This document shows positions 3,109 to 31,827 of a DNA stretch of 64,000 bases, piece by piece (the first letter of the stretch is position 1; each line of letters starts with the position of its first letter). The translations under genes were made by a program, and so were the position numbers. Origin of the DNA: an uncultured Verrucomicrobia subdivision 3 bacterium (lineage in GTDB: Bacteria; Verrucomicrobiota; Verrucomicrobiia; Limisphaerales; UBA11358); the NCBI GenBank assembly GCA_903850425.1, contig CAINLR010000083.1:28444-92443 (forward strand), in the 5' to 3' direction. The notes under the pieces are model-generated. The model made no database searches, was not told the origin of the DNA, and worked only from the letters and a program-made list of their open reading frames with translations.

Positions 3109-3693
3109 TCAAATACGTTGGAGGACCTTTTCGATCTGGCGCTCGTGAATCTCCGGGTTGCCTTCGGTCCAGATCACATAATCAGCGCGGGAAATTTTTT
3201 TCTCGACCGCCCATTGGGCAGCGATGCGCTGCTGGATTTGCTCCCGGCTCCAACCGCGGCCAGCCAGTCGCTCACGCTGGGCGGCGGGAGAACAGGCCAC
3301 ACAAATGATTCTCTCAAAATACGCCGCCGCCTGCGTTTCAAACAGCAGCGGAATGACCACGCAGCCGAGCGGACAATTTTCCGCGCGCCACGCGGCCACT
3401 TGCGCGAGCCAACCGGCTTGGATGCGCGGATGAAGAATGGCTTCGAGTTGCTGGCGGGCGACCGGGTCGGCAAAGACGCGACTGGCCAGGGCGGCGCGGT
3501 TCAATTCGCCGGCGGTAAGAATCATTTCAGCGCCGAAGGTGTTGGCGATTTCCGTCAACGCCGGCTGGCCGGGTTGGACAAGTCGCCGGGCGAGGTCATC
3601 CGTATCCACCACCCGCACTCCGTGAGACAAAAGAAAACCGGCGGCGGTGGATTTGCCCATCCCCACGCCGCCGGTCAAACCGCAGAGTTTCAT
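3109..3693 (-). CDS. coaE: Dephospho-CoA kinase
   Basis: MKLCGLTGGVGMGKST P-loop, DTDDLAR, R..L...VF.D...R..LE.ILHP.I, IPLLFE motifs. Start moved to ATG 3693. Confidence 0.95.
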   Translation of the reverse strand: MKLCGLTGGVGMGKSTAAGFLLSHGVRVVDTDDLARRLVQPGQPALTEIANTFGAEMILTAGELNRAALASRVFADPVARQQLEAILHPRIQAGWLAQVAAWRAENCPLGCVVIPLLFETQAAAYFERIICVACSPAAQRERLAGRGWSREQIQQRIAAQWAVEKKISRADYVIWTEGNPEIHERQIEKVLQRI

Positions 3694-3698
3694 TCCGT

Positions 3699-6185
3699 TC
3701 ACGGACCAACCAAAGTCCGATAAAACCGCATTGGGAAGTTGGTGGAGTCGTAGCTGGTGAACGTGAATGGAATCAAATTCGTGGCGACCGGAACCCAAGG
3801 GCCGGTGACGAGATTGGTGGACGCCTGAACGATGGCGGATTGGCCCGCAGCACCCGTCACCGCCAACTGAAACGCGTGCGTGGCGGGATTATAGCTGGGC
3901 GTCAACGTCGGCGGCGTGATGATGCTGGAAACCAGCAGCGTGGCGATGCCATTATCATCATCCGGGTTCGGGTCACTGGTGGTGGCAGCAACACTCGCGT
4001 CATTGGTGAAGGTGCCGATGGCGTTGGCCAGAAAACTCAACGTCAGTTTCGCGCCGGTATTGATGGACAGATTACCCACCGACCAAGTCAGCACCGAACC
4101 GCTGATGGTGACGGAGCCAGCCGTGGCGTTAGAGGAAACCAGCGTCAGACCGGTGGGGGGCAGATTATCGCTGACCAGCACGTTGGTGGTGGAAGAAGGG
4201 CCGTAGTTGGTAACGGCCAGACTGACCGTCCAAAAGGTATTCGTGGCAATGGACGCACTGGCCGGCGTGACATAAAGCTGGTTGTCCGCCGCATAGCCCA
4301 CGGGATTGGCCGTGGTGAGATTGAGGAACCAGCCGTTGGAGATAATACCTGTATTGATGGCTGAATCATCTTGCACAAACAAGAACCAAGGACCATTGGG
4401 GTTGCCGCCATTCAAGGTGGCGAGCGTGGTGCCGTAAGGCGGACGGGGAGCCGAAACAACGACGACCGGCGGGACCGGGAGTGTGAGGTAGTTAATCAAA
4501 TTGGTGCCTTTGGGCGAGCCAAGACCAGTGGCAAGGTCATAACCCGGGACGGCAAAATAGTTGGTCGGACTGCCCGGCCAGGTATTGTCGCCGAGAACCA
4601 CATCGTTGAAAACAGTCGTGTAATTGGCGCTCCTGGCGAGATTGTAAATCGCCGGATTCAAAAATCCAATCGGCGGCCGGTTGCTGATGGCGGCCTGCTG
4701 GTTCACCAGCGCCATGAAGCCTGCCCAGAGCGGCGCGGCTGCACTAGTGCCGCCGCTCGCACCCGCCTGACCGTTTTCGGAAATGAGATATATTTCCGTG
4801 GCAGGCATGGCCACATCTGGAAAATTGCGACCAGTGGCGAATCCGTGGTTGGTAGTGGTTGCGAAGCCCTGCTGCCAAGCCGGCGCACCATAGATAAAGC
4901 TGACGCCGCCGCCACTGCCCCAGTCACCGCCTTGGCCGTTGTTGGGCGTGCGATCGTTCCAGACGGATTCCGAAACGAAATTCCCCGCCGAGTCCGTGGT
5001 CAACTTGGTGCCACCAACACTGGTAAGGTAAGCGTTAGCGCAAATGGCAAAGCCGCTATTTGGGCTGTCTGGTTGTCCTACCAACATAGCGTCGCTGTCT
5101 CCGGATGATTGGAAGAAACTCTGACCTTGCACAGCCATCTGCTGCAAAAGCTGGTTGATCGTCGCACTTGGCGCCCCCAAACTCCAAGAGCAACTCACTT
5201 GTTTGGCGGCATTGTCCGACGCAATCTGGCTCAGCACGACAACCGCGCGAAAAAAGGCTGGGTTTTCCTCATAGACGAGCAATTGGCTCAATCCAGGCGC
5301 CATTGAATTAGCCATTTCGATGTCCAGTTCAACTTCGCCTTCGCCACCAGTCATCGTCGGATTGCCATCAAATCCATCCAGCAAAATGTTGGTGATCGAA
5401 AGCGTGGGCAAGCCGGCCAACTGCTCATACGCCGCAATGTCGCTGGGAAAATAGCCGTCAAACTGGACCAAGGCGATCTTCTGGCCCGTGCCAGTCAGCG
5501 TCGTCCCGGGCACATAGGCTTTGCGAAAATCATAACCAATGAAACTGCCATCCGGAGCCGAACCCCCGACAAACGATTTTCCAGCCGGGGACTGCGCAGT
5601 CTTGGAACTCGGCTTGATAAAGGAATGCGGCTGAAAATAACTGCTCAAACCGCTGATATCCTGCACCGGCAAGCCCATCGGCACAGAAGGCTCGGTGTCC
5701 GGCGAGAAAAACAGGCGGCTCTCAGTGGGATGTTGATAGTTCTTTAGCGTAATCCCGAACGCGCGTTCCACGTCGGAAACCGCCCCGGTGATTTCAACCA
5801 CCATCCGGTTGGCGTGCGTGCGTGTCACGGTCAGTCCGTTTGCATTCGCAAAGTTGATCACCGCCTGTAGGTCGTTGGTCGTTGGCCCAAACTGTTCGGT
5901 GAACTGTTCGGTCGTCAGATATTGCCGGTAATTCGGACTGGCTGGATCAGTGATCTGCGACATGAGCAAATCCAGCCCTGCCTGGTTGCGCGTCGGCAAG
6001 CCGATGGCTAGGTGCAGGGCAGTCGCCGGGTCCAACGGACTGGTGGCGGTCAAAGTGCTCACCACCGCCGGCACATGTCCCGACAAGGTGGTGCGGCCAA
6101 CGACGGCCGCTGCCGAGCGACTGGCGAAGCCAGCCACCGCGATCAATCCGACGCCAACTAGCAATAAAGTCTTCCTCATATTCAT
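3699..6185 (-). CDS. Secreted S53 (sedolisin/kumamolisin) peptidase: signal peptide, pro-kumamolisin domain, catalytic domain, C-terminal half of a P-domain, DUF11-like domain, 'RFYR' tail domain
   Basis: Prodomain (L.L.I.L..RN...L......DP.SPNY.QYLT.EQF...FGPT), E-xxx-D (EGEVELD), SGD oxyanion motif, GGTSAAAPLWAG nucleophile, GYDLATGLGSP Ca site. Confidence 0.9.
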   Translation of the reverse strand: MNMRKTLLLVGVGLIAVAGFASRSAAAVVGRTTLSGHVPAVVSTLTATSPLDPATALHLAIGLPTRNQAGLDLLMSQITDPASPNYRQYLTTEQFTEQFGPTTNDLQAVINFANANGLTVTRTHANRMVVEITGAVSDVERAFGITLKNYQHPTESRLFFSPDTEPSVPMGLPVQDISGLSSYFQPHSFIKPSSKTAQSPAGKSFVGGSAPDGSFIGYDFRKAYVPGTTLTGTGQKIALVQFDGYFPSDIAAYEQLAGLPTLSITNILLDGFDGNPTMTGGEGEVELDIEMANSMAPGLSQLLVYEENPAFFRAVVVLSQIASDNAAKQVSCSWSLGAPSATINQLLQQMAVQGQSFFQSSGDSDAMLVGQPDSPNSGFAICANAYLTSVGGTKLTTDSAGNFVSESVWNDRTPNNGQGGDWGSGGGVSFIYGAPAWQQGFATTTNHGFATGRNFPDVAMPATEIYLISENGQAGASGGTSAAAPLWAGFMALVNQQAAISNRPPIGFLNPAIYNLARSANYTTVFNDVVLGDNTWPGSPTNYFAVPGYDLATGLGSPKGTNLINYLTLPVPPVVVVSAPRPPYGTTLATLNGGNPNGPWFLFVQDDSAINTGIISNGWFLNLTTANPVGYAADNQLYVTPASASIATNTFWTVSLAVTNYGPSSTTNVLVSDNLPPTGLTLVSSNATAGSVTISGSVLTWSVGNLSINTGAKLTLSFLANAIGTFTNDASVAATTSDPNPDDDNGIATLLVSSIITPPTLTPSYNPATHAFQLAVTGAAGQSAIVQASTNLVTGPWVPVATNLIPFTFTSYDSTNFPMRFYRTLVGP

Positions 6186-6202
6186 CTCTCAATTTTTTGT
6201 CA

Positions 6203-9200
6203 TCACGGGAAACTCTTGACCGGCAGATTTCCGGATGGCTTGTTCGTGCCGCTAATAATCTGGCCCGCCGTCGGCAGATTGGTCGCCGCCGCATCGTCAA
6301 AGGTCAAAGTGACATGGCTGACGGTGAACGTGCCGCCGGCATTGGCCATGATCAAGGTGTTTGATCCGTTCGGACCCACCACGAGTGCGCCAATATCCGC
6401 CGGCGCCGTGTGCGATAGGTTGGTCAGCGTGACCGTGGCCTTGACCAGGGAGCCGCCCACGCCACTCACATTGATCAGCGCCGGATACGGCGTGGCGTTG
6501 GTGTTGTCGTTGATGATAATCGCATTGGTGTTGGCAAATTTCTTCGTCCAAGTGCCGAGCGTGAAACCAAAGATCGCCGTGCCAATGTTGTTCGCGCCGT
6601 CCTGCAGCTTGAAGGTGGCGGCGATCTGCTGGTTGTTGGTGCCGCTGGCGGTAAAGGTGAAGGGACGGGAAACGGAGTGGCCTGCATACACCAGCGTGCC
6701 ATAATTCGCCGTCACCGGGTTGATCGGCGTCACGCCGTTGGTGGCCAGCAACGTGGCGTTAAGATTGTTGACATTCGTGCCGCCCGCGTCGCGCAGGCCG
6801 AACAGGACGGTCACCGTCTCGTTGGGATCAATGATGCCATTGGCCGCACCGGCATTGGTCTCGGAGAGTAATTGCGCCCCGGCGGCAATCACATAGCTGC
6901 CTGTATTGTCGTGGATGGTCAGCTTGGCCGCCGACGGCGAGAGCAGGACGCCATTCACGGCGTTGTTCAATTCCAGCAACACGGTCAGGTCCGGCTGCAC
7001 GGTGGTGGTGGCAATGATTGGCACACTGAAGGTGGCCACGGTCTGGCCGTTGGTGAAGACCAGCGTGCCGTTGGTCGCCACAAAGTTAAGCCCGCTGATC
7101 GCCGTGCCATTGGTGGCGACGAAATCCACCGTGGAGGTCGTGTTGGTGAAATCGGAGCGATAGACGGAGATCAACGCCGCGCCGCCGGTCTTGAGGACCG
7201 TGTAATTCGCGCCGGAGAAGCGGATGCCAGAATTGCTGTCAATGATCGTCACCGTCTGCACCGTGGGCGGGACGAGCCGGCCCGTGCCCGTTGGGTTGGA
7301 GAGACTGACGGTGAAGACATGGTTGCCACTCACGGCGCCGTTATTGATGATGGGCACGGTGAACGTCTGGGTGCTCACGCCATTGCTGAAGATCAAGGTG
7401 CCGCTGGTGGTGACATAGTCCGCACCGGCCGTGGCATGATTGGTCGCTGCGCCGTCGGCGGTGTTGTAGGTGACGGCGACCGGCTCGACGTTGGTGTTGG
7501 AACAAACCACGGTGACCACCAAGTTACCCGCGTTCTTAAGCACGGAAACACTGTTGGTAGTGAAGCTCAAACCCGCATCGTTGTCCTGCAAAATCACGGT
7601 GGTGATGCTCGGATTGCCCAATTGCACGCCGGGGGTGGGATTGGACAGGCCGACGGTGAACTGCAAATCGCCCGTCGCATTGGTGCTGTAAAGCAGCGGC
7701 ACCAGGATAACGGACTGGGAAGCCCCGTCGTTGAAGGTCAACGTCCCGCTGCTGGCGACGAAGTTGACGCCGGCCACCGCCGAACCATTGGTGGTGGAAT
7801 AGTTGATGGTGGTGGTGCCCACCGTGTTGTTGTAACGCAGCACATTGAGGGTGGCAAAGGGCAGCGTTTCATTGAAGGTATTGGTCGCCAAGGAGAACAC
7901 GATGCCGACGTTGGTGTTCAGAATCGTCACCGTGGCGTTGGACGGATTGAAGATCGAGGTGCCCAGCGATGCGTTGGTCAACTGCACAAAGAAGTAGGAG
8001 GTGGGTTCCACGGTGGCAGTGTTCAGCACTTGAACCTGGAAGGTCTTGACCATTTCCCCGTCCGCGAAGGACAACACGCCGTTGGTGGAAAAGTATTTCG
8101 CTCCGGCGACGGCTGTGCCATTGGCCGTGGCATAACCCACCGACACGATGCCCGCCGCGCCGTTGGTGCGCAGCACGGTCACCGTGAGGTTGGTCGAGCC
8201 GATGCCGCCCCCTTCGCTCACCACATAGTTCGTGGCCGAGAGTTCAAATGATCCCTTGGACTGCGTGCGATCCAGAATGGTCAGCAGCGCATTGGACGGG
8301 TTATTCATCATGGACCCGGTGGCATTGGTCAACTGGAGGGAGACCGTGCGGTCACCGTCGGAGATGCCATTGATGATGGGGACCATCACCGTCTGCACCG
8401 CCGAACCCGGCGCGAACGTGATCACTCCGTTGGTCACCGGCTGATAGTCCACGCCAACGACCGCCGTGCCATTGGAAGTGGTGTTGAACACCACCGTCGA
8501 AGTGCCATAGGTGGCCCCCGAGCGATTGATCGTGATCGGCGCATAGCCGTCCGGCACATTCGCCCCATACTTGGTGACCAAATAAGTGGCCGCCGAGAAA
8601 CTGATCGCGCTGTCAACATTGGTGATGGTCAGCAACGCCGTGGGTTGGTTGCCTCGCTCGCCCGGGGCCACTGGCGTCAAGGCCAGATTCACCGTCAAAT
8701 CGCCGTTGACGACCAAGTCATCCTGCACCGGGATGACAATGGTCCGCTGCACCTCGCCGGCGGCAAACACCAAGTTGGTCAGGACCGTGAAGTAGTTGGT
8801 CACGCTGGCGTGATCCGTATCCGCCTTGGCGGTGCCATCCGTGGTGGCGAAGGCGACATAGATATTACCCAAGCCGTTCGCGTTCGTGCCGCTGGTGCCG
8901 CCGGTGCGGTTCACCGTGATGAGGGCGTTGGTGCCATTCTCATTCGCGCCATAGTTGGCCGAAGAAAATTCAAACTCCCCGGAACCGCCGATGGAGCCGC
9001 CGTAGATGCGGGCCAGGTGCTCGTGCGACTCGCCGAAGTAGTGGGTAAAGCCGCCGCCAATGATGATCTTCTCGTTCGGCACATTGGTGGGATAACCCGT
9101 GATGGTGGCTTCTTGCACCACTACTGCGCCCACAAAGCTATCCGCGCCCACGCCGAAGTTAATCGTCGGGTCCACCGTGCCATCAGGATTCAAACGCGTG

Positions 9201-18500: not shown

Positions 18501-18525
18501 TCAATGAGGGGAAAAGTGAGTCCAT
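15502..18525 (-). CDS. Large secreted Thr/Asn-rich protein of unknown function with a DSDGDG Ca-binding loop and an 'RFYR' C-terminal domain
   Basis: Signal peptide ...AGPAQA|V, DIDSDGDGIVNSED motif, C-terminus ...KTNLLSSSWTVLTN...VTFSDP...QRFYRV. Confidence 0.75.
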   Translation of the reverse strand: MDSLFPSLNRPSRWLKFVPLAAVMCLCAGPAQAVDDTFYNSDFLDTTTLPVNTLQPINATNFVNDAGGTFSWDFSGVLSQSWINSLYSGWHYTRNFTNNGEMLSSTGFRFDTQTSGHAEAGNFYNTANINCGSGLNSIFLNQQLGLINGVYYGGYGGIYVNATNIVNTGTITVGSDGLGRFIGENLDFTTGNFSMQNSFVNFIGQTNTVNIYAVGETGTSTNNWYPDQDLTATTATSGIMKGNLFQLSLYNSKSYFSVDDKSNPTNWVIRMVFIQNSNTNVPYNVYHNTGGGGLGLNGFTTIEWIGAYLDPVTGSMATNYLYLSNDYIQGSSTNILKYVSGVPNNYTFQETASPLALGTPVPSSFPAIFNSGQPFPANFPVNTNIYSYMDAQLIATTITTNAIALTNIPGRFEFTANKELNLTLTRMSGMNYVLLKSTNNFDYDGQSEITAPYADLYLGKTNQSMTLTNLLLSSTPFWNGEVQAWNTRWFYTDTNSGITLDYRVVIVGSQLEPTTPSYQQDVVLYATNNVVISDALSVYHTLSLNCTNLTITANGEGALSPSGTLNLLTANMFWATCVPKVRCLTNDGAISTMNLTKFGSAALPYLSFVNTGSIINGNGTAIVANNFENSGSFYSGGGSFTLAGQTATLSGGTISANGAFSSTSDKITIAATSLSVGKSITLNATNLLTDHMPFTFNFGWPNQDFFSGNFWSLGSATAGSGGGFTSAAGLVLPIKPVKGDLLNTTIYSVAPSGTLITHTWAGQDRGYSPQGFTNNAAIGQLLLDAQGPAPHTGFYFAGTGGAGVTNAIYVDNLQLLDNATNGTLANQFNPTSLIFSNNLVIYYAQAMMNGSSIAEKLNHGNNDHLRWVSTYAGTYSSTNITYPSGETITVNAALAQSSDIDSDGDGIVNSEDTSSPFFLQSQIAFSLTFTKVPPLTAQLQWTTIPNATNYVWFKTNLLSSSWTVLTNFPSLLPYPSAPAAVTFSDPVSFTGQRFYRVSVVPWLTYPF

Positions 18526-22159: not shown

Positions 22160-22169
22160 ACAAAATTTA

Positions 22170-24254: not shown

Positions 24255-25132
24255 ATCAACTCCGACTGCCGCTCACGGCATTGTTCTTCCAGCGCCGCCG
24301 CCAGACCTTTGAAACCCCAGCCGGCAAACAGGCCGCGCAATATATTTCGGTCCGGCGACTTCGGTTTCAGTTTCTCCGGCACCCATTCACAGGGCACTTC
24401 GTGCAGTCGCACGAGGGCCAGATTCCGACGCACATTCTCCGCCGCGCCGAGCAAGGCCGTCCGCAAGCGTTCGGATTTCACTTCAGCCAGCCGCGCCAAC
24501 AAAATTTCCACAGAACCAAACTGGTTCAACAATTCAGCCGCCGTCTTGGGCCCGATGCCGGCCACGCCGGGGATGTTATCCACCGCGTCACCCATCAACG
24601 CCAGCCAGTCGGCCACCTGCTCGGGCTCAACCCCCGCTTTCGCGTGGACTTGTGCGCGCGTCCAAACCGCGCCTGTCTTGTCGTTCGGATTCAACAAACC
24701 AATTTGATCCGAAACCAACTGCATAAAATCTTTATCCGCACTGGCAATGACCACCGGCCAGCCGTCTGCCGCCGCGCGCCGCGCCAGACAGGCGATGTAA
24801 TCATCCGCCTCGATCCCGTCGCCGCAAAATTCGGCCATACCCGCCGCCGCCAGATACTTTCCGATCTCGTCAAACTGCGGCCGCAAGTCGTCCGGCATTT
24901 CCGGCCGCTGCGCCTTGTAGGCCGGCAAAGCGGCCATCCGGGCCGCGCTCAAACCGCCATCCCAAACCACGATCAGGTGCGTCGGCTCCAAGGCCGCGCG
25001 CATTTTCTCGAGCATTTTTACAAAACCAAATATGGCATTCGTCGGCTGGCCGGAAGGCGAACGCAACTCGCGGATGGCGTGAAAGGCACGGTAGGCGTAG
25101 GCGTGTCCGTCAACAATCAGCAGCCGGTTCAC
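24251..25132 (-). CDS. Stand-alone 5'-3' exonuclease / flap endonuclease (PolA N-terminal-like)
   Basis: LLIVDGHAYAYRAF, TNAIFGF, YKAQR..MPDDL, EADD.I..LA, SADKDF.QL, GDAVDNIPGV.GIGPKTA (H3TH). No polymerase domain follows. Confidence 0.92.
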   Translation of the reverse strand: MNRLLIVDGHAYAYRAFHAIRELRSPSGQPTNAIFGFVKMLEKMRAALEPTHLIVVWDGGLSAARMAALPAYKAQRPEMPDDLRPQFDEIGKYLAAAGMAEFCGDGIEADDYIACLARRAAADGWPVVIASADKDFMQLVSDQIGLLNPNDKTGAVWTRAQVHAKAGVEPEQVADWLALMGDAVDNIPGVAGIGPKTAAELLNQFGSVEILLARLAEVKSERLRTALLGAAENVRRNLALVRLHEVPCEWVPEKLKPKSPDRNILRGLFAGWGFKGLAAALEEQCRERQSELI

Positions 25133-25797
25133 GGCTTCACTGCCAGGGCCGCCGCGCTGACTTTCTGCGAACCAACTTCCTTCACCACGCCATTGCCTTC
25201 CGACTGCTCGGGCGTGGTGGACTGCGCAAACGGCATTTCGTCGGGGGAATGCACGCGGTTGCCGGCCGGATCCACAATCGTCGCCGTGACAAAGATCATC
25301 AGGTTTTTCTTGACCGCGTGCTTGCTCTGGCTGCGGAACAAACCGCCCACCAACGGAAGATCACCCAAGACCGGCACCTTGTCCTTGGTGCTTTGCTGTT
25401 GCGAGGAAATCAACCCGCCAATCACCACGGTCTGGCCGTCCCAGACGTTCACCGTGGTCACGACCTGCCGCACTGTGAAGTTCGGCAGAATCGTCGGCAA
25501 CTGCACGACGTTCAGATTGCCGGTGACATTGGGGATATTCGGTGGCGCATCGTAGCCATTAAAATCGGTCATGGACGGAATGAGCGCCATGTTGATGGTG
25601 AATCCGTCGGACAAAACATACGGCACCACATCCAGAATCGGCCCGGTTTCCACGGATTGCGTGGTGGGCGTGATCGCGGAAGTTCCGGGATTGATCTGTT
25701 GGACTTGCGCCTGTAGCGACGGCGCCGCGACCAGACCACCGAGCGCCAGCGCGACGACTGCCGTTAGCCGAAGTTGATTTGCAGAATTGATTTTCAT
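25129..25797 (-). CDS. Secretin, C-terminal part, encoded as a separate gene with its own signal peptide
   Basis: GAGG RBS, then MKINSANQLRLTAVVALALGGLVAAPSLQA|Q, then secretin core strands TQSVETGPILDVVP...DGQTVVIGGL...KVPVLGDLPLVGGLFRS...LMIFVTATIVD. Confidence 0.88.
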   Translation of the reverse strand: MKINSANQLRLTAVVALALGGLVAAPSLQAQVQQINPGTSAITPTTQSVETGPILDVVPYVLSDGFTINMALIPSMTDFNGYDAPPNIPNVTGNLNVVQLPTILPNFTVRQVVTTVNVWDGQTVVIGGLISSQQQSTKDKVPVLGDLPLVGGLFRSQSKHAVKKNLMIFVTATIVDPAGNRVHSPDEMPFAQSTTPEQSEGNGVVKEVGSQKVSAAALAVKP

Positions 25798-25816
25798 GTT
25801 GCCTCGTTTCAAGAAA

Positions 25817-28147
25817 TTATTGGCCGGCACCATTGCCACCGCCATTGACATTGCCCGTTTGTGCCGAACTGCCCTGCTGGAAGTTCAAGCCCGTGATGAT
25901 GGTCACGACCTGAGACGCCCGCATTTGGGTCTGGCGTCCGCTCGTGGTGGTGACTTCAGGTTCCGCCAAGGTTTCAAACCCGGTGCGTTGTTCAAGCGCG
26001 TGCAAGGTCACCTGGAAATTCGGGTCCGTCAAAATGCCCGTGATCGTGCCCAGCGCTGGCGCGGAATTACGCAGACCGCCTGTGAGCAACTGGTCGCCCG
26101 CGGAACCAGGGATTAGATTGGCGGCGGTATTGCCGGGAAACGCCCCCAGCGGATTGGCGGCCGAAGTGGGCACGTTAAGCGAGGGTGAACTGCCACCGGT
26201 GCCGACCACCTGGCCACCCATGTTAAACTGCCCCATGGACCAGTTGAAACCCAAAGCCTTGTCATCGGTTTGTTGCACTTCAATGAAGCGTGACTTGATA
26301 TGGACCTGTGGCGCGACTTCGTTCAACATCGCAATGGCCCGCTCAATGGTGTCCAAATCCTGCTCCGTTGCTTTGACGAGGAGTTTGCCCAACCGGTCAT
26401 TAAAGAAAACAGACTTGCCGGGCGGGTTTTGCAAATTCACACCCAGCGCGGTGAAGAACGACCGAGCCAACTCACTGGGCGTCGCGGCCGAGGTCTGCGT
26501 GGTAATATAATTTATTCCACCTTGGTTTTGACCTTGACCACCTTGACCACCGCCACCACCGGTTCCACCACCAACTCCCCCCGCAGCACCGCCGTTCAAG
26601 ATGCTGCCGCCACCTTGCCCGCCACTACCGCCGCCGCCGCCGCCGCCGCCGCTTTGGCCTTGGTTACGAAGCTGTCCGCCACCGGCAAAGGGATTCACCA
26701 CCCCAACCACGGCGCCGCTGCTTTGACCGTTTTGACCACCGCCACCGCCACCGCCACCGCCGCCGCCACCGCCACCGCCACCGCCGCCATTTTGGGAGGA
26801 GCCACCGAAGCTGGTCGCCCCGACACTCTCAAGGCCGGAATAGAACGTGTTCGGATCAACCTTAAATATGCGGGTGAAAAGCTGGGGGGATTCCTCAGCT
26901 TTGGCGGAAAAGACAACGGCAAATTCTTGCACCGAGTATTTGAGCGGGTGATCCGCCACCAGCGTGATGGCATCGAGCACGTCGGCAAGCCGCACATCGG
27001 TCAGGGTGAGCTTGATTTGGACGGCAGCCACATCCACCGCTTCCGGAGCGCTGGCACCTGCGCCGGGCCCAGCGGCCGGCAACCCGGTGGCAGGATCAAT
27101 GGCGGGTGCCGGTGCGCCCCGACCTTCGGTCGCTCCTGGAAAGCCACCGCCCGCACCAAACTGGCCAACCGGTGCGGCCACTGGCTGCCCTGACTTGTCG
27201 GCATTTGGATTGATGATAAAATTAATGCCCTTGCGATCCACATCCCGCAGTTTGGATTGCTCGGTCAAATTGCGGAGCACTTCGGAGAGCGGCAGGCCTT
27301 CGTAGGCAATATTGTCCAGATGAATGCGGTCCAACTTGGCGATGATCGCCTGCCGGCCGGGCCCGGTCCAAACCTGATTGTTGGTGGCGTAGGGGTTGTT
27401 GAACTTGGGCAAATTAGCCCCGGAAACAGGCGCAATCCACTGCTTTTCAACATTCGCCATGCGATCCTGCGTGTCCACGGTATGCTGGGAGGTTTCCCGG
27501 ACAAATTTGGCCTGCTTGATGAGGTTGAGATAATAATAGGCACCGGTATTGTCGGGATCCAAGCGAATGGCTTGGGCCAGTTTGGCCTCGGCTTCTTCAA
27601 GCTTGCCCATTTCATAAAACAGTTTGCCGTCCTGCACGAGCGTCCCGGCTTCCGTTTTTTGCGCGTTAATTTGCGGCACCTGTTCCACGACCGCGAGACT
27701 GGGATACCGGCCCTTGTTGACAGCCAGCATCTGATCATTCTGCGCCTTGAAGGCGAGGGCAGCCGGATTTTTCGGGTCTGCTTTGAGCACCTGCGCGACT
27801 TGGGTGTTGGCTTCGCGCAAATCACCCCGGCTCTGGGCGTCGCGGGCTAGCGCCAAGCGGGTGGCGGCCAAACCGGCTTTGGCCTGCGCGGTCTCCACCG
27901 CGATGCCGGAGCCGATCTGTTCGGCTAACGCGCAGCATTCCTGGTAAAGTTTGGCGGCGGCGACCGTGTCGCCTTTCTGCGCGGCGGCTTGCGCCTCGGC
28001 CAGTTTTCCGCGGAGCACGACCGTGTAGGATTGGCGCAACACGGCTTCGTTGACCGCCAGCGCGGCAGAATTATCTTGCGCAGTCAGGATGCTGGGCGAC
28101 ACCAGCACGGCGGCAAGTCCGAGTGAAAAGAGAGCGGCTTTGGTCAT
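25817..28147 (-). CDS. Secretin (PilQ/GspD, Amuc_1098-like), N-terminal part: signal peptide, TPR, N-domains with a Gly-rich loop, first half of the secretin core
   Basis: TPR (GKLFYEMGKLEEAEAKLAQAIRLDPDN), N3 domain (FNDRLGKLLVKATEQDLDTIE), PQVHIKSRFIEV, TLAEPEVTTTSGRQ. Stops before the GxxLxVxP strand. Confidence 0.88.
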   Translation of the reverse strand: MTKAALFSLGLAAVLVSPSILTAQDNSAALAVNEAVLRQSYTVVLRGKLAEAQAAAQKGDTVAAAKLYQECCALAEQIGSGIAVETAQAKAGLAATRLALARDAQSRGDLREANTQVAQVLKADPKNPAALAFKAQNDQMLAVNKGRYPSLAVVEQVPQINAQKTEAGTLVQDGKLFYEMGKLEEAEAKLAQAIRLDPDNTGAYYYLNLIKQAKFVRETSQHTVDTQDRMANVEKQWIAPVSGANLPKFNNPYATNNQVWTGPGRQAIIAKLDRIHLDNIAYEGLPLSEVLRNLTEQSKLRDVDRKGINFIINPNADKSGQPVAAPVGQFGAGGGFPGATEGRGAPAPAIDPATGLPAAGPGAGASAPEAVDVAAVQIKLTLTDVRLADVLDAITLVADHPLKYSVQEFAVVFSAKAEESPQLFTRIFKVDPNTFYSGLESVGATSFGGSSQNGGGGGGGGGGGGGGGGGGQNGQSSGAVVGVVNPFAGGGQLRNQGQSGGGGGGGGSGGQGGGSILNGGAAGGVGGGTGGGGGQGGQGQNQGGINYITTQTSAATPSELARSFFTALGVNLQNPPGKSVFFNDRLGKLLVKATEQDLDTIERAIAMLNEVAPQVHIKSRFIEVQQTDDKALGFNWSMGQFNMGGQVVGTGGSSPSLNVPTSAANPLGAFPGNTAANLIPGSAGDQLLTGGLRNSAPALGTITGILTDPNFQVTLHALEQRTGFETLAEPEVTTTSGRQTQMRASQVVTIITGLNFQQGSSAQTGNVNGGGNGAGQ
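26540..26790. repeat. Low-complexity (GGC/GGT)n tracts encoding poly-Gly in the secretin
   Basis: Long CCGCCA/CCGCCG triplet runs translating to GGGGGGGGGGGGGGGG and GGQG motifs. Confidence 0.85.
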
Positions 28148-28201: not shown

Positions 28202-28996
28202 TCAGGGTGTAAATGGCAAAGGAGTTTTTTTCTGATTCGACTGATCGGCCAGAATTAATTCATTCTGGCTGACCTCCGCAACGATGTAGTCGGTCCCGTA
28301 AAAGGCAACCTTATCACCCGCCCGCCGGGCATGGAAAACTCTTTTTTCCGGATCGTAACGAAAATCCGCCGTGTAAGCATCCACCCGGCGATAGGGTCTT
28401 TCTTTCGACACCGTCGCCTTCTCGCCCGTGTCCACCAGTTTGACCACCAAGGCATCGGGATTATCCGGCGGACCTTTGATTTCGACCAGCGCGAAGGTGT
28501 CATTCGGTTTGTCGCCCGCCGAAACAAAGCGTTGCTGCTTGTGACGTTTGGCGGGTGTTTTTTCCGCCTGCTTCTCGACGCCAAAAACATAGCGTGCCCC
28601 CAGCTCGTTGGTGGTTACGTTGTCCAGCGTCAGGATCAAATAAAGCGGCGTGATGTTGGTGACCACCACGGCCTTGACACCAACCGCGTTGCCACTGTGC
28701 AGTTTGATCGGACCGTCCGGACCCTTTTGCCATTCCACCGGATTGAAGACTTTGTTGCCGGTTTCCAGATCCAAGGTGTAGCCGGACTTCAGCCGGGCGA
28801 TGGCGCTGCTCGGCACGCTCAAATCAAGATTGGTCAAGGGCTGAACGTGGGGATTATTGATATACTGGTCCCGCAGATCTTTCATCTTCTGGCTTTCCGA
28901 CGCGATGAAGAACGGCAGGAACACCAGGGCACCAACCAACCCCGCCAGCACCAGGCCGAGCAAGATCTTTTCGTAATGTTTTTTGAGAAAGTCCAT
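28202..28996 (-). CDS. Amuc_1099-like pilus-cluster protein with an N-terminal membrane anchor
   Basis: MDFLKKHYEKILLGLVLAGL N-terminus. Lies between the PilO-like gene and the secretin, as in the Akkermansia Amuc_1098-1101 cluster. Confidence 0.6.
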   Translation of the reverse strand: MDFLKKHYEKILLGLVLAGLVGALVFLPFFIASESQKMKDLRDQYINNPHVQPLTNLDLSVPSSAIARLKSGYTLDLETGNKVFNPVEWQKGPDGPIKLHSGNAVGVKAVVVTNITPLYLILTLDNVTTNELGARYVFGVEKQAEKTPAKRHKQQRFVSAGDKPNDTFALVEIKGPPDNPDALVVKLVDTGEKATVSKERPYRRVDAYTADFRYDPEKRVFHARRAGDKVAFYGTDYIVAEVSQNELILADQSNQKKTPLPFTP

Positions 28997-28997
28997 C

Positions 28998-29951
28998 TTA
29001 GCTTTTCGGCGACAGTTTCACGAACTCCACTTCCAGCGTGACCCGGAGCAATTGCTCCTTCAAAATTGTCTGCAATCCCCCCTTGCTGGAGGCGGGCGGC
29101 GCAACCTGGGCGGCTGGCGGCGGAAATTCGCCACGCCCGTAACGGTCGGGTATCCCCGTTCGCATGGGCGGCATGGCCACGGGAGACTCGTCGGTCGGCA
29201 GCGCGCCGGCGGCACCGGCGGGCTGGACATTGATGGACTTCACAATAAACGCATGGGGGGCGGTGGCAAAACCCGTCAGCACGCGCGCGAGTTCCGGCGT
29301 GAAGCAACGCAGCGTGATAACGTAAGGGGTCACTACCGCCAGATCATTCGTGATCGGATGGGTGTCCAGATAATCCGTGGCCGGCCCGGTGGCGTCGTCG
29401 TCTGAAACGCGCACGCGCTGAATGCTGTCGAGCGAGTTGATCCGGGAGGCAAAGAGAATTTCGTTGATGGCGTTGACTTCACCCAACTGAATGGCCAACG
29501 GCTCCAGACTGCCGCCGGCAAATTTCATCAACGTTCTCTGGGCGGTGAAGGAAAAATCATACTTCGGTGGCAAGACCACCCCGGCGCTCTCAGCCGCATG
29601 TTGCAAATGATCCACCGTCACCCGCAAGGCACCGGCATACGCCGCACTCGTTACCGGCCCATTGGCGGGAATCGCCGGAATCGGCTTGAAATGTTCGCCC
29701 GCTTGCTGAATCCACGCGCTCACCTGCTTTTCCTGATCCTTGGCAATCTGGGTGTTATTGATCTTGTCATTGCCCGGGGCCGGCTTCCGCCCCGCGATAT
29801 CTTTTAGGGTGGTGTAATATTCATTCAGCTTGTCGAACGCCACAGAGTTGCGCGTCCAGCCCTTGAAAATATAGAAGCCTGCCCCGCCCAGCAGCGCGAG
29901 CGCCAGCGCCCCGCCGACGACAAAGAATAAATTGCGTTTGATCCAGGCCAT
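28998..29951 (-). CDS. Amuc_1100-like (PilO-like) pilus assembly protein
   Basis: N-terminal TM helix and coiled coil; F.FSF...R; I..I.R.; C-terminal F..AP.AFIVK...V...L.V.L.VEFV; synteny with pilM. Confidence 0.7.
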   Translation of the reverse strand: MAWIKRNLFFVVGGALALALLGGAGFYIFKGWTRNSVAFDKLNEYYTTLKDIAGRKPAPGNDKINNTQIAKDQEKQVSAWIQQAGEHFKPIPAIPANGPVTSAAYAGALRVTVDHLQHAAESAGVVLPPKYDFSFTAQRTLMKFAGGSLEPLAIQLGEVNAINEILFASRINSLDSIQRVRVSDDDATGPATDYLDTHPITNDLAVVTPYVITLRCFTPELARVLTGFATAPHAFIVKSINVQPAGAAGALPTDESPVAMPPMRTGIPDRYGRGEFPPPAAQVAPPASSKGGLQTILKEQLLRVTLEVEFVKLSPKS

Positions 29952-29952
29952 A

Positions 29953-31827
29953 TCAAAAACTGGGCAGGTTGGTCGGTGCCACGTTCAACGTGAAGGTGAA
30001 AGTGCCGGTGGCGTCATCAGCCACAATGCTGCCAACCAGCGACGTGGCTTTGGGGTCAACGAACGGCGAGTTTTTGATTTCACTTTCCACGGCGAACGCG
30101 ATGGCGCTATTGGCGGCCGCATCCACGCTCGTGAGACTCACGGCGCGGCAAATCATCGTAATCATATTGGTGTTCCCCTCCTGCCCGGGAGTCGCCGCCG
30201 CCGTTTCCACTGGCGGCGGAGGAGGACTTTCACCCCGACCGTAACGGTTCGGAACGTCACCGCGACCCCGCATGCCGGGCGGAAATTCACCCATTACGGT
30301 GGGGGCCGGTGTTAATGCAGTTGCAACGGATGCCCCACCCAAGCTTGCATTGGCGATCATCTGTTCAATCCAGATGCCCGCCTCGACGTTCGGTTTTTGG
30401 GCCGAGAGTTTCTTCTTGATGCCGTCTTCGGAGCGCAGCAGCGCGCGGCGCATGTCTGCGACAAAATCGCCCCAATAAAATCGCTGCTGCATCCAGACGG
30501 TAATCAGGTCCGCGTCCTTCCGCGCTTTCTGCAATTTGGCGTAGGCCTTCTTGAAATTTTCGGATTTGTTATTGGCGGCCTGCACCAGCGGGTCCAGGTT
30601 GGCCACTTCCTGCTCCTTGTTGACCGCCAGTTTCTGGAACAAAAAACCGATCGCAAACAGCACCAGCACCAGACTGAAAACGGTCGCCACCAAGTAAGGT
30701 TTCTTCTGGTTGAAGGACTGCCAGCGCAACGTGCTCTCCGGCATCAAATTCATTTCCACCGGGCAGTTCGCCAAGTTGCGCAGGCCGAGGCCGACGACTT
30801 CGCCCAAGCCGTGCGCCACGCGCGACAATTCTTCCAGATTCACCGACGGATCAATCTGCACGTTGCGGAACGGATTGAAATATTCCACCGGCACCTGGAG
30901 TTTTTCCGCAAAAAACTGCGCCGTATAAGGCATGATGGACGCGCCGCCGGAAAGAAACAGGCGTTGCGGGGCCGAACCGCCCTGCTGGCCGCGATAAAAC
31001 TGCATCGTCTGGTTGACCTGGATGTGCAGCTTGGTCATGAACTGGCGCGCGATCTTGGAAATCGCCGCCTGATGCACGTTGTCCGGCTCTTCATACGCGC
31101 CGCCGAGACTCACAAAACCCTCGGCAATCTTGATCTTCTCCGCGTCGTCAAATTTCAATTTCGCCTCGTTCGCAAAATCCTGCGTGATGGCGTTGGCGCC
31201 CAGATTAATGCTGCGCGAAAAAACTTTTCCCTTTTCAAAGAACAGCAGGTTGCTCGTCTTGGCGCCGATGTCCAGCAGCATGGTGCAGTCAGCCTCGAGA
31301 TCGCCATAATTATATTTAAAGGCATTGCACAACGCGGCGGGCGAGGCGTCGCACAATTGCAGCTTCAGCTTCGCCTGATCGGCCATGCGGAACAGCCCCT
31401 CGACGATTTCCGACTTGATGGCGACGAGCAGCACTTCCAGTTCGCCGCTGGCGGCGGAACCGAGAATCTGATAATCCCACACGACTTCCGACAGCGGGAA
31501 CGGCACGTTTTGCTGCGCCTCGTATTGGATGATCTGGCCGACCTTGGCGGCATCCACCGGCGGGAGTTTGACAAACTTGGAAAAAACGTGGAAGCCCGGA
31601 GCGCAGACATTGACGCTGGTGGCCTTGAATTTTTTTTCGGCGAGAATTTCCTGCAGCGCGGCCAGAATGGTTTTTTCCCGCGTCGCCTCCTGCGCACCCT
31701 CCAGGCCGAGCGACTTGATGACAAAGTTCTTGAGCAACAATCCGCCCGCCTCATTGATTTCAAACTCGGCGAGCTTGAGGCTGCCAGCTCCGAAATCAAT
31801 GGTCAGAAATGACTTGGTGTTCAACAT
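29953..31827 (-). CDS. pilM: Type IV pilus assembly PilM (actin-like) fused to a PilN-like domain (Amuc_1101-like)
   Basis: IDFGAGSLKLAEF, EAQQNVPFPLSEVVWDY, LLDIGAKTSN, LSGGAS, C-terminal EMNLMP motif, then a TM helix and PilN-like region. Confidence 0.9.
   Translation of the reverse strand: MLNTKSFLTIDFGAGSLKLAEFEINEAGGLLLKNFVIKSLGLEGAQEATREKTILAALQEILAEKKFKATSVNVCAPGFHVFSKFVKLPPVDAAKVGQIIQYEAQQNVPFPLSEVVWDYQILGSAASGELEVLLVAIKSEIVEGLFRMADQAKLKLQLCDASPAALCNAFKYNYGDLEADCTMLLDIGAKTSNLLFFEKGKVFSRSINLGANAITQDFANEAKLKFDDAEKIKIAEGFVSLGGAYEEPDNVHQAAISKIARQFMTKLHIQVNQTMQFYRGQQGGSAPQRLFLSGGASIMPYTAQFFAEKLQVPVEYFNPFRNVQIDPSVNLEELSRVAHGLGEVVGLGLRNLANCPVEMNLMPESTLRWQSFNQKKPYLVATVFSLVLVLFAIGFLFQKLAVNKEQEVANLDPLVQAANNKSENFKKAYAKLQKARKDADLITVWMQQRFYWGDFVADMRRALLRSEDGIKKKLSAQKPNVEAGIWIEQMIANASLGGASVATALTPAPTVMGEFPPGMRGRGDVPNRYGRGESPPPPPVETAAATPGQEGNTNMITMICRAVSLTSVDAAANSAIAFAVESEIKNSPFVDPKATSLVGSIVADDATGTFTFTLNVAPTNLPSF

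What the first reader, a model, noticed from the sequence alone, without database searches (positions are those of the whole stretch)
3109..31827. ~29-kb secretin/PilMNO locus carrying its own set of very large secreted proteins
Seen: 12 consecutive minus-strand genes with overlaps or gaps of 70 nt or less, ending at a terminator near 2960. They comprise PilM-N, Amuc_1100-like, Amuc_1099-like, the split secretin and five signal-peptide proteins of ~700-3076 aa. No pilin, PilB/PilT ATPase or PilC platform gene is in the run. Established: the Amuc_1098-1101 cluster of Akkermansia is a pilus-like outer-membrane assembly. Inference: this may be a Verrucomicrobia-specific T2SS/T4P-like export machine whose substrates or surface-layer/tip components are encoded in cis.
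Basis: partly seen in the sequence, partly recalled or inferred. Interest (0 to 1): 0.65.

Follow-up and report, generated by a model that had tools for sequence, protein, structure and literature searches.

The report
Secretin operon with conserved surface-protein cassette
A pilus-type outer-membrane pore operon found across Verrucomicrobia has, in one large soil and freshwater order, picked up a fixed set of three big exported proteins plus a variable giant one, which makes them good but unproven candidates for cargo or surface partners of that pore.

Summary
The 12-gene minus-strand run (3109-31827) is real. It is tightly packed and ends at a strong terminator (2992-2965).

It has four layers:
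- **Core module:** a phylum-wide Amuc_1101/1100/1099/1098-type set (PilM-N fusion, two bitopic proteins, TPR-secretin). Here the secretin is split into two genes.
- **Conserved cassette:** g07 (beta-propeller, FN3 domain and a shared C-terminal domain, the CTD), g08 (Thr/Asn-rich repeat stalk) and g09 (likely beta-helix plus CTD).
- **Variable slot:** here a 3076-aa Calx-beta/propeller giant and an S53 protease.

Synteny is very strong. In 151 Limisphaerales genomes, g07 lies 4.6-8.8 kb downstream of PilMN in all 113 cases where both sit on one contig. No full-length g07 occurs outside the order.

In an Akkermansia-type genome the secretin is followed directly by coaE, so the cassette most likely entered an older operon.

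Pilins, ATPases and platform genes are encoded elsewhere in the genome, as is normal for pilMNOPQ operons.

A functional link between cassette and secretin rests on synteny alone. The equally conserved housekeeping passengers, and about 110 CTD proteins scattered across the genome, weaken it. No RNA data could be examined.

The parts
31828..32274 (.). Divergent intergenic region; presumed promoter of the run
   Evidence: The next gene (metallophosphoesterase, 32275-33018) is on the + strand. No convincing sigma-70 match was found. The promoter is inferred only.
29953..31827 (-). g01: PilM fused to a bitopic PilN-like C-terminal part (Amuc_1101 type), 624 aa
   Evidence: PF11104 PilM_2, E 8e-37. 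NF045709 Amuc_1101_fam, E 1e-140, 470 bits, below the 650-bit equivalog cut-off. Present in 222 of 251 genomes of the phylum. The PilN-like part is read from a transmembrane segment seen in the sequence; no PilN family matched.
28998..29951 (-). g02: Amuc_1100-family bitopic protein, 317 aa
   Evidence: NF038287, E 6e-17, full length but below cut-off. hhalign against the position-2 proteins of distant Verrucomicrobia, including an Akkermansia-type genome: 99.9 %, E 6e-31.
28202..28996 (-). g03: Amuc_1099-position protein, 264 aa
   Evidence: No library hit. hhalign against the position-3 proteins: 98.9 %, E 1.8e-17 over 243 columns.
25817..28147 (-). g04 SecN: signal peptide, TPR repeats, Gly-rich linkers, N-domain and the first strands of the secretin domain, 776 aa
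   Evidence: TPR_11 and Amuc_1098_fam (positions 19-380), GspD/PilQ N-domain matches. It ends at a T/G-rich loop.
25129..25797 (-). g05 SecC: its own GAGG ribosome-binding site and signal peptide, then the rest of the secretin domain (Pfam positions 38-169)
   Evidence: PF00263, E 1.5e-30. ATG at 25797, 19 nt after the SecN stop. The split is kept in 8 of the 11 same-genus loci fetched (9 of 12 with the window), in three different relative frames. Among 46 scorable close loci, 37 are split and 9 fused. All other families examined are fused.
24251..25132 (-). g06: 5'-3' exonuclease / flap endonuclease (housekeeping passenger)
   Evidence: PF02739, E 3e-48, and PF01367. It is the only such domain found in the assembly by tblastn. 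It overlaps SecC's stop by 4 nt. It is absent from this position in 3 of 20 order loci, where g07 follows the secretin directly.
22170..24254 (-). g07: conserved cassette protein 1; beta-propeller, FN3-like domain and a C-terminal '...YRV' domain (CTD), 694 aa
   Evidence: AlphaFold2 model with pLDDT 83, pTM 0.79. Foldseek finds only generic propellers (sialidase-like, CylK), TM 0.45 or less. Present in 143 of 151 order genomes, mostly single copy, and always 4.6-8.8 kb downstream of PilMN when on the same contig.
18530..22159 (-). g08: conserved cassette protein 2; novel N-domain, variable number of Thr/Asn-rich repeats, conserved C-domain and a cadherin/He_PIG-like Ig domain
   Evidence: Alignment A2. 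Model of a 741-aa orthologue: pLDDT 76, with long antiparallel strands in the repeat region. Only the Ig domain matches solved folds (SraP adhesin, cadherins, Rib). No Pfam hit.
15502..18525 (-). g09: conserved cassette protein 3; N/G/T-rich region that looks beta-helical, a thrombospondin-3-like DSDGDG motif, then the CTD; 1007 aa
   Evidence: Sequence read. Weak PDB hit to phage spike gp138 (E 0.02). CTD HMM hit. Orthologues at 26-46 % identity in 18 of 20 order loci. The beta-helix reading is by eye; no model was made.
6203..15433 (-). g10: variable-slot giant protein, 3076 aa
   Evidence: Calx-beta x9 (E 4e-140) and DUF5122 propeller repeats x12. The slot after g09 is empty or holds unrelated 1200-1900-aa proteins in other families.
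3699..6185 (-). g11: sedolisin (S53) protease with pro-kumamolisin activation domain, DUF11 and CTD, 828 aa; variable slot
   Evidence: PF09286, E 2e-29, and PF01345. At least seven paralogues lie elsewhere in the genome. CTD HMM hit.
3109..3693 (-). g12: coaE, dephospho-CoA kinase (housekeeping passenger; ancestral last gene of the operon)
   Evidence: PF01121, E 1.6e-48. Single copy in the assembly. The likely ATG at 3693 is 5 nt after the g11 stop. coaE directly follows the secretin in the Akkermansia-type locus L121 and lies within 1-3 genes of it in L122, L123, L125, L131 and L139.
2965..2992 (-). Intrinsic terminator closing the run
   Evidence: AGGAGCCCGGAGTAGTGTCCGGGCTCTT followed by TTTTTTG; 11 pairs, 7 of them G-C.

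Best explanation
The region is one long operon with four layers.

(1) The core is the phylum-wide envelope-spanning module known from Akkermansia as Amuc_1101-1098. It comprises a cytoplasmic PilM fused to a bitopic PilN-like part, two further bitopic proteins in the PilO and PilP positions, and a TPR-bearing secretin.

(2) Two housekeeping passengers ride in it: a 5'-3' exonuclease and coaE. coaE is probably the ancestral last gene.

(3) In Limisphaerales a cassette of three Sec-exported proteins was inserted between exo and coaE and then fixed: g07 (propeller), g08 (repeat stalk with an Ig tip) and g09 (likely beta-helix).

(4) A hypervariable slot after g09 holds lineage-specific giant adhesin-like genes, here g10 and the S53 protease g11.

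Proposed working: the run is transcribed from the divergent region at 31.8-32.3 kb through to the terminator at 2.97 kb. Transcription must be at least weakly constitutive, because single-copy coaE abuts the preceding gene. The cassette proteins enter the periplasm through Sec and end up on or outside the cell surface as adhesin- or glycan-binding-type proteins. They are made together with the secretin module and probably depend on it to cross, or be held at, the outer membrane. The ATPase, platform and pilins would be supplied in trans, for example from the PilB-PilT-PilC-pilin cluster on contig C178.

Shown: gene content, order, homologies, order-wide synteny and the predicted folds. Inferred: co-transcription, surface location, the direction of the insertion, and any dependence on the secretin.
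For: - **Core module and order:**. PilMN is in 222 of 251 genomes of the phylum.
- **Ancestral layout:** the Akkermansia-type locus L121 reads PilMN(612)-317-337-907 aa secretin-coaE. Exo or coaE follow the secretin in several other classes.
- **Cassette synteny:** 19 of 20 loci across 10 families. 57 of 58 close loci. g07 in 143 and PilMN in 146 of 151 genomes at least 90 % complete; all 113 same-contig pairs are adjacent and co-oriented.
- **No full-length g07 outside the order:**
- **Tight junctions in other families:** overlaps or gaps of a few nucleotides in L026, L028, L029, L033, L038 and L039.
- **Exo not needed as a spacer:** where exo is missing, g07 directly follows the secretin (L033, L036, L037).
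- **Lost as a block:** two lineages (L030 from G008, and L099) read secretin-exo-coaE on intact contigs. G008 lacks g07 and the g08 core domains genome-wide. This pattern fits an accessory that needs the machine rather than the reverse.
- **Protein character:** all five large proteins have N-terminal signal-peptide-like segments and a T/N/S/G-rich, K/E-poor composition. Folds are adhesin-like.
- **No internal terminator:**
Against: - Synteny is the only link. The exonuclease and coaE, with no conceivable role in export, are just as conserved in the run, and coaE is conserved phylum-wide. Conservation of position here therefore does not imply shared function.
- The module exists without the cassette in the rest of the phylum and in G008 and L099.
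- g07, g09 and g11 carry a CTD shared with about 110 other ORFs scattered over the genome. By inference, about 8 of the 29 phylum genomes that lack an Amuc_1101-type PilMN still have CTD hits. If the CTD is the export signal, it is not tied to this secretin.
- The genome has other secretins, two of them with their own ATPase nearby (C183, C59), that could export these proteins.
- No pilin-like, PilY1-like or known T2SS-substrate feature was found.
Confidence: 0.5

Rival explanations
1. Hitch-hiking. The cassette and the giant genes are ordinary Sec-exported surface proteins that landed in a strongly and constitutively expressed operon. They stay there for expression or by inertia. They reach the surface by another route, such as a CTD-dependent pathway or one of the other secretin systems, and have no mechanistic link to this secretin.
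For: - Exo and coaE are equally conserved passengers, and coaE follows the secretin even in the Akkermansia-type genome.
- 112 CTD ORFs are dispersed genome-wide, 105 with the domain at the extreme C-terminus.
- CTD proteins occur in phylum genomes that lack the Amuc_1101-type PilMN.
- A g08 paralogue with a CTD stands alone on C56.
- Other secretin, ATPase and platform sets exist.
- From my own knowledge, not tested here: Pseudomonas pilMNOPQ-aroK-aroB and pilBCD-coaE are precedents for housekeeping genes conserved next to pilus genes.
Against: All 113 same-contig cases across more than 100 GTDB families keep g07 directly behind the secretin or exo, although cassette proteins have diverged to 26-45 % identity. 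Unlinked genes rarely keep position that long. The cassette stays adjacent when exo is lost. g07 is near-universal and mostly single copy, unlike typical variable adhesins.
Confidence: 0.33
2. Fibre or tip complex. g07-g09 are structural parts of the appendage built by the module. They would form a non-pilin fibre or a PilY1/minor-pilin-like priming and tip complex, with g08 as a length-variable stalk, g07 as the propeller head and g09 as a beta-helical shaft.
For: - PilY1-type tip adhesins also combine a signal peptide with a beta-propeller (my own knowledge).
- The number of g08 repeats varies, giving proteins of 458-1238 aa, around conserved end domains. The model shows long-strand sheets suited to a stalk.
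- The three genes keep a fixed order and are near-universal, as expected of parts of one assembly.
Against: No class-III (prepilin) signal peptide, no pilin fold, no match to the PilY1/PilC family and no vWA domain. The CTD on g07 and g09 is shared with about 110 unrelated proteins. The module works without these proteins in the rest of the phylum.
Confidence: 0.1
3. Capture for uptake. The module is a retractile pilus-type machine used for import of polymers (or DNA), and g07-g09 are surface capture or binding proteins that feed it.
For: - g07's propeller most resembles sialidase- and glycoside-hydrolase- or lyase-type propellers, though weakly.
- The secretin Amuc_1098 is the most abundant outer-membrane protein of A. 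muciniphila (PMC4960237, read), which suggests a bulk transport or structural role.
- From my own knowledge, not checked here: pilus-like genes were reported as needed for mucin glycan uptake in Akkermansia.
Against: No catalytic or sugar-binding residues were examined. No transporter, TonB-dependent receptor or glycan-use genes lie in the run. The idea is speculative.
Confidence: 0.07

Closest known systems
Akkermansia muciniphila Amuc_1098-Amuc_1102 'type IV pili-like' cluster (Ottman et al., PMC4960237, PMC5332112; review PMC10688800)
   Same: Same four core genes in the same order: PilM-N fusion, Amuc_1100 family, Amuc_1099-position protein, TPR-secretin. coaE lies downstream in both.
   Different: All four score below NCBIfam's equivalog cut-offs, so they are distant members. 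No Amuc_1102-like gene lies upstream (a divergent gene sits there instead; no homology search was run). The secretin is split in two. An exonuclease plus about 21 kb of large secreted-protein genes lie between the secretin and coaE.
Proteobacterial type IVa pilus pilMNOPQ operon (for example Pseudomonas aeruginosa), with the housekeeping neighbours aroK-aroB, and pilBCD-coaE (own knowledge)
   Same: An alignment sub-complex plus secretin encoded apart from the pilin, ATPase and platform genes. Housekeeping genes, including coaE, are conserved next to pilus genes.
   Different: PilM and PilN are fused. The PilO and PilP positions are filled by unrelated-looking families. TPR repeats sit at the secretin N-terminus. 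A conserved cassette of large secreted proteins lies inside the operon.
Type II secretion operons with a substrate encoded in cis (Klebsiella pulA-pul genes; E. coli sslE/yghJ next to the T2SS-beta genes; own knowledge)
   Same: Large Sec-dependent exoproteins encoded beside the secretin genes.
   Different: No GspE, GspF or pseudopilin genes in the run. There are three conserved 'substrates' plus a variable slot. No experimental link exists.
PilY1/PilC pilus-tip adhesins
   Same: Signal peptide plus beta-propeller; encoded with pilus biogenesis genes.
   Different: g07 does not match that family or fold specifically. No minor pilins are adjacent.
C-terminal sorting domains of other phyla (T9SS CTD, PEP-CTERM)
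   Same: A roughly 90-aa beta-sandwich domain at the extreme C-terminus of about 105 large secreted proteins, three of them in this run. A PEP-CTERM-type tail is also visible by eye just downstream, at 2121-2759.
   Different: No match to the T9SS or PEP-CTERM models. The processing machinery is unknown. There is no demonstrated connection to this secretin.

Membership tests
Amuc_1098-1101 pilus-like cluster (Verrucomicrobiota) | PilM-like protein of the Amuc_1101 family (PilM fused to a membrane-spanning C-terminal part) | tested here: met
   NF045709, E 1e-140, positions 1-461 of 608, 470 bits (equivalog cut-off 650 not reached). PF11104, E 8e-37.
Amuc_1098-1101 pilus-like cluster (Verrucomicrobiota) | Amuc_1100-family protein in second position | tested here: met
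   NF038287, E 6e-17, full length, 62 bits (cut-off 180). hhalign 99.9 %, E 6e-31 against position-2 proteins including the Akkermansia-type one. Pairwise BLAST is not significant.
Amuc_1098-1101 pilus-like cluster (Verrucomicrobiota) | Amuc_1099-type protein in third position | tested here: met
   hhalign 98.9 %, E 1.8e-17 over 243 columns. Pairwise BLAST shows only the N-terminal K-x-Y-E/D-KILL motif.
Amuc_1098-1101 pilus-like cluster (Verrucomicrobiota) | TPR-bearing secretin of the Amuc_1098 family as a single polypeptide | tested here: inconclusive
   NF042912 hits both halves (positions 19-380 and 643-804), and TPR and PF00263 are present. The protein is encoded by two genes here; it is a single gene in the other families and in the Akkermansia-type genome.
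Type IVa pilus system (complete) | Pilin, prepilin peptidase, PilB/PilT ATPases and PilC platform | tested here: inconclusive
   None is in the run. The genome has 14 T2SSE hits, five T2SSF loci and about 70 prepilin-motif ORFs. These include a PilB-PilT-PilB-PilC set followed by four pilin-like genes on C178 that has no secretin of its own. Which set, if any, serves this module cannot be told. The prepilin peptidase was not searched for.
Type II secretion system with cis-encoded substrate | GspE/F/G-K genes in the cluster, and a substrate shown to need them | tested here: not met
   No T2SSE, T2SSF or pseudopilin gene lies in or beside the run. Substrate dependence cannot be tested with these tools.
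PilY1/PilC tip adhesin | Neisseria_PilC-type propeller, usually with an N-terminal vWA domain, encoded with minor pilins | tested here: not met
   No such Pfam or NCBIfam hit. Foldseek returns generic propellers only. No pilin genes are adjacent.
Single co-transcribed operon | One transcript spanning 31.8 kb to 3.0 kb | not testable with these tools
   Short or overlapping junctions and a single strong terminator are consistent with it.

The most novel reading that the evidence does not exclude
g07, g08 and g09 are dedicated extracellular partners of the phylum-wide Amuc-type PilMN/secretin module. Together they would form an order-specific surface organelle or a secretin-dependent display pathway that needs no pilin of its own. 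Its cargo is encoded inside the machine's operon, and a plug-in slot takes lineage-specific giant adhesins.
Probability: 0.15. Interest if true: 0.8.

Novelty: new variant of a known kind. Interest (0 to 1): 0.5.

Why it matters
The Amuc_1098-1101 module is nearly universal in Verrucomicrobiota. Its secretin is the most abundant outer-membrane protein of Akkermansia (PMC4960237), yet what the machine does is unknown.

Limisphaerales are abundant in soils, peat and lakes. They offer a natural clue: three unknown, near-universal secreted proteins locked into the same operon. If these depend on the secretin, they would be the first identified clients or partners of this machine, and a handle on its function across the phylum.

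If they do not, the locus is a clear case of very long-lived synteny among functionally unrelated genes: exonuclease, coaE and surface proteins riding in a pilus operon. That is a useful warning for guilt-by-association annotation.

Tried and rejected
- **PDB sequence searches** with g07, g08 and g09 gave nothing usable (best E 0.02-0.8).
- **Fold searches** gave only generic propellers for g07, and only Ig/cadherin-type hits to the last domain for g08. No link to pilus or secretion proteins emerged.
The PilMN alignment was used instead.
- **Self-BLAST of g07-g09** showed no internal repeats at E 1e-3, although g08's repeats are visible by eye and in alignment A2.
- **The 700-aa genes after exo in other classes** (L127, L128, L139) were considered as distant g07 homologues and rejected. 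The g07 HMM does not hit them, and by eye they look like membrane proteins with a helical-repeat tail.
- **The second Amuc_1098-like secretin domain on C74** was considered as a paralogous system with its own large proteins and rejected. By eye its N-terminus is a membrane-sensor type, it follows an ECF-sigma-like gene, and its neighbours are unrelated.
- **CTD as the export signal for this particular secretin** was considered. It is weakened by CTD hits in phylum genomes without the PilMN type.
- **Literature searches** found no paper on this locus in Limisphaerales or Pedosphaera. A search for the Akkermansia transposon-mutant study returned nothing usable.
Full report
**Observation**

The window (contig C83 of a 6.9-Mb, 197-contig assembly) carries 12 consecutive minus-strand ORFs from 31827 down to 3109. 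With starts refined against relatives, neighbouring genes overlap by 4 nt or lie 1-68 nt apart.

One strong terminator-like hairpin follows the last gene at 2992-2965. No comparable site lies inside the run; site counts there equal those of shuffled sequence. Genes upstream of 32275 are on the other strand: a metallophosphoesterase, a heptosyltransferase and an HDOD response regulator. The run therefore starts at a divergent intergenic region.

**Gene content**

| Gene | Coordinates | Size | Identity |
|---|---|---|---|
| g01 | 29953-31827 | 624 aa | PilM (PF11104) fused to a membrane-spanning C-terminal part; Amuc_1101 family, E 1e-140 |
| g02 | 28998-29951 | 317 aa | Amuc_1100 family, E 6e-17 |
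| g03 | 28202-28996 | 264 aa | No library hit; Amuc_1099 position |
| g04 + g05 | 25129-28147 | 776 + about 222 aa | TPR-secretin of the Amuc_1098 family, encoded as two genes |
| g06 | 24251-25132 | 293 aa | 5'-3' exonuclease / flap endonuclease |
| g07 | 22170-24254 | 694 aa | No family |
| g08 | 18530-22159 | about 1210 aa | No family |
| g09 | 15502-18525 | 1007 aa | No family |
| g10 | 6203-15433 | 3076 aa | Nine Calx-beta domains, twelve DUF5122 propeller repeats |
| g11 | 3699-6185 | 828 aa | S53 sedolisin with DUF11 |
| g12 | 3109-3798 | 229-aa ORF | coaE |

Profile-profile comparison with the proteins at positions 2 and 3 of the cluster in distant Verrucomicrobia, including an Akkermansia-type genome, gives 99.9 % (E 6e-31) for g02 and 98.9 % (E 1.8e-17) for g03. 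The labels 'Amuc_1100-like' and 'Amuc_1099-like' therefore hold, although pairwise BLAST sees almost nothing.

One of them separates the secretin from the large genes.

**Taxon**

Record titles of 80 related loci name Verrucomicrobia subdivision 3, Limisphaerales. All are MAGs from lakes, bogs and soils.

- I fetched 20 kb downstream of PilMN in 20 genomes: 11 of the same genus and 9 of other families. In 19 of them the order is PilMN, 1100, 1099, secretin, [exo], g07, g08, g09, [variable], coaE.
- The exception (L030, from G008) reads secretin-exo-coaE on an intact contig.
- In three families exo is missing and g07 follows the secretin directly.
- Among 80 closer loci, 57 of the 58 with at least 8 kb downstream have g07 and g08. 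The exception, L099, again reads secretin-exo-coaE.
- In an even sample of 151 Limisphaerales genomes at least 90 % complete, spanning more than 100 GTDB families, g07 is present in 143 and PilMN in 146.
- In all 113 genomes where both lie on one contig, g07 is on the same strand 4.6-8.8 kb (median 5.7 kb) downstream of PilMN.
- The other 27 genomes have the two genes on different contigs, mostly near contig ends. That fits assembly breaks, plausibly in the Gly-rich secretin linker.
- Junctions are overlapping or a few nucleotides long in other families too.

The large genes g07-g09 are thus syntenic with the secretin genes across the whole order.

**Limits of that synteny**

In an even sample of 250 other genomes of the phylum, the Amuc_1101-type PilMN is present in 221 (222 of 251 with the window's genome). 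No full-length g07 is found there; hits cover only the C-terminal domain or a few propeller blades.

I fetched 20 of those distant loci.

- The Akkermansia-type genome reads PilMN (612 aa), 317 aa, 337 aa, a 907-aa secretin (the length published for Amuc_1098 in PMC4960237), then coaE.
- coaE lies within one to three genes of the secretin in five further families.
- The exonuclease directly follows the secretin in three.

The simplest history is an old operon PilMN-1100-1099-secretin-[exo]-coaE, into which the Limisphaerales ancestor took up g07-g09. This direction is inferred from the distribution.

The slot between g09 and coaE is variable. It is empty in some genomes and filled with unrelated 1200-1900-aa proteins or g10-like giants in others. 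g10 and g11 are therefore not conserved partners. g11 has at least seven paralogues elsewhere in the genome.

**What the cassette proteins are**

All five large proteins begin with signal-peptide-like segments. They are rich in Thr, Asn, Ser and Gly and poor in Lys and Glu.

- **g07:** A 17-sequence alignment gave a confident model (pLDDT 83, pTM 0.79). It shows a multi-bladed beta-propeller, an FN3-like domain and a small C-terminal beta-sandwich. Solved structures match only as generic propellers such as sialidases, glycoside hydrolases, lyases and CylK, with TM 0.45 or less.
- **g08:** It has a conserved N-domain after a signal peptide ending A-x-A/F-S-L-L-G-P. A variable number of Thr/Asn-rich, Cys-pair-containing repeats follows, giving proteins of 458 to 1238 aa. 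Then come a conserved C-domain and an Ig domain. In the model of a 741-aa orthologue (pLDDT 76) the repeat region forms long antiparallel strands. Only the Ig domain matches known folds (SraP adhesin, cadherins, Rib).
- **g09:** It looks beta-helical by sequence and carries a DSDGDG calcium-type motif before the C-terminal domain.

These are adhesin- or surface-protein-like architectures. None has a prepilin signal, a pilin fold, or a PilY1-type or known T2SS-substrate signature.

**The shared C-terminal domain**

g07, g09 and g11 end in a roughly 90-aa domain ('...W..L......F/YYRV'). An HMM built from it finds 112 ORFs in this genome. In 105 the domain is at the extreme C-terminus, the median ORF length is 833 aa, and 48 exceed 1000 aa. 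A g08 paralogue on contig C56 also carries it.

The domain is phylum-wide. Comparing, roughly 8 of the 29 phylum genomes without an Amuc_1101-type PilMN still have such hits. That count relies on genomes missing from the listed part's table. The domain may be a sorting signal, but nothing ties it to this secretin in particular.

**'Missing' components**

The genome holds the following elsewhere:

- 14 T2SSE-family ATPases
- platform genes at five loci
- five secretin-domain genes (C183, C59, C109, C83, C74)
- about 70 ORFs with a prepilin-type N-terminus

Contig C178 carries PilB, PilT, a second PilB, PilC and four pilin-like genes with no secretin or PilM. It could serve this module or the second PilM-secretin cluster on C109.

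Encoding the PilM-Q part apart from the pilin and motor genes is the normal layout in type IVa pilus systems (my own knowledge). Their absence here is no sign of an unusual machine.

**The split secretin**

The first gene ends in a T/G-rich loop just after the first strands of the secretin domain. Nineteen nucleotides later, after GAGG, a second gene starts with its own signal peptide (MKINSANQLRLTAVVALALGGLVAAPSLQAQ) and supplies Pfam positions 38-169.

The same two-gene form, with divergent but intact second signal peptides and all three relative reading frames, occurs in 8 of the 11 other same-genus loci first examined. It occurs in 37 of 46 scorable close loci. The remaining close loci and all other families have one gene with a low-complexity loop at that point.

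It is therefore an evolutionarily maintained split, not a sequencing error.

**Interpretation**

The layered-operon description is well supported. The functional claim, that g07-g09 are cargo or surface partners of the secretin module, rests on synteny, tight coupling, the block-wise loss in two lineages that keep the module, and the exported, adhesin-like nature of the proteins.

Against it stand the equally conserved housekeeping passengers, the scattered CTD family, and the presence of other export systems.

| Reading | Probability |
|---|---|
| Cassette proteins functionally tied to the secretin module (cargo or surface partners) | about 0.5 |
| Hitch-hiking with no mechanistic link | about 0.33 |
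| Structural fibre or tip complex | about 0.1 |
| Capture proteins for an uptake machine | about 0.07 |

Because single-copy coaE and the only 5'-3' exonuclease domain found in the assembly sit in the run and abut their upstream neighbours, the operon is probably transcribed constitutively. That fits the very high abundance of Amuc_1098 in Akkermansia (PMC4960237).

**Novelty**

The core cluster is known from Akkermansia (PMC4960237, PMC5332112, PMC10688800). I found no paper on the Limisphaerales arrangement. Three things appear undescribed:

- an order-wide, position-locked cassette of three unknown secreted proteins inside this operon
- the variable giant-gene slot
- the phylum-wide secretin-coaE linkage

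They are a new variant of a known kind of system, and their mechanism is unproven.

Noticed in passing
window 25129-28147: The secretin is encoded by two genes, and the second half has its own ribosome-binding site and signal peptide. The split is kept in 37 of 46 close relatives, in all three relative frames. It is fused in 9 close relatives (including the closest, L041) and in all other families, where a low-complexity loop occupies the break point.
   Followed up: yes
L121 (Akkermansia-type genome G118) and L122, L123, L125, L131, L139: coaE follows the Amuc_1098-type secretin directly, or within 1-3 genes, in several classes of the phylum. The 5'-3' exonuclease follows it in L127, L128 and L139. 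This is a phylum-wide link between housekeeping genes and the pilus-like operon, and recalls pilBCD-coaE in proteobacteria (own knowledge).
   Followed up: partly
L124, L134, L135, L137, L138: Other classes and families of the phylum carry two tandem paralogous secretin genes (about 800-900 aa each) after the PilMN-x-x genes. This is a different route to a two-polypeptide secretin.
   Followed up: no
whole genome (G000); window 3699-6185, 15502-18525, 22170-24254: A roughly 90-aa C-terminal domain ending in F/YYRV is found on 112 ORFs, 105 of them at the extreme C-terminus and 48 longer than 1000 aa. Hits occur across the phylum, including in genomes without the Amuc_1101-type PilMN.
   Followed up: partly
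window 24251-25132: This stand-alone 5'-3' exonuclease is the only such domain that tblastn finds in the assembly. The genome's DNA polymerase I probably lacks that domain, or is missing from the assembly.
   Followed up: partly
G000 contig C56:55860-57383: A 507-aa paralogue of g08 has the same A-F-S-L-I-G-P start and the same N- and C-domains, but ends in the CTD instead of the Ig domain. It stands alone among unrelated genes.
   Followed up: no
G000 contig C74:31417-34809: An 1130-aa ORF has a C-terminal half 40-45 % identical to this secretin. By eye its N-terminus looks like a membrane sensor (BlaR1/anti-sigma type). It sits directly after an ECF-sigma-like gene.
   Followed up: no
G026 contigs C37 and C2: One MAG (4 % contamination) holds two divergent copies of the arrangement, each with PilMN and g07 in the usual spacing. 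The C2 copy (L040) runs through to a g10-like gene. This is either a duplication of the unit or two organisms in one bin.
   Followed up: no
window 24149-24254: An N-terminal extension of g07 (MNLxxW...FGQS.R..L) lies ahead of the hydrophobic signal segment. It is conserved in same-genus relatives and does not overlap another gene. It may be an extended signal peptide.
   Followed up: no
window 2121-2759 and 3-1919: Just past the terminator lie a 212-aa protein with a PEP-CTERM-like tail (VPEPS...LRLRNKR, by eye) and a TMEM260-like O-mannosyltransferase-type membrane protein with a helical-repeat C-terminus.
   Followed up: no
window 26550-26800 (inside g04): Long poly-Gly and Gly/Gln/Ser linkers, including a run of more than 20 Gly. 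In 27 of 140 order genomes PilMN and g07 lie on different contigs, mostly near contig ends. This linker is a likely assembly-break hot spot.
   Followed up: no
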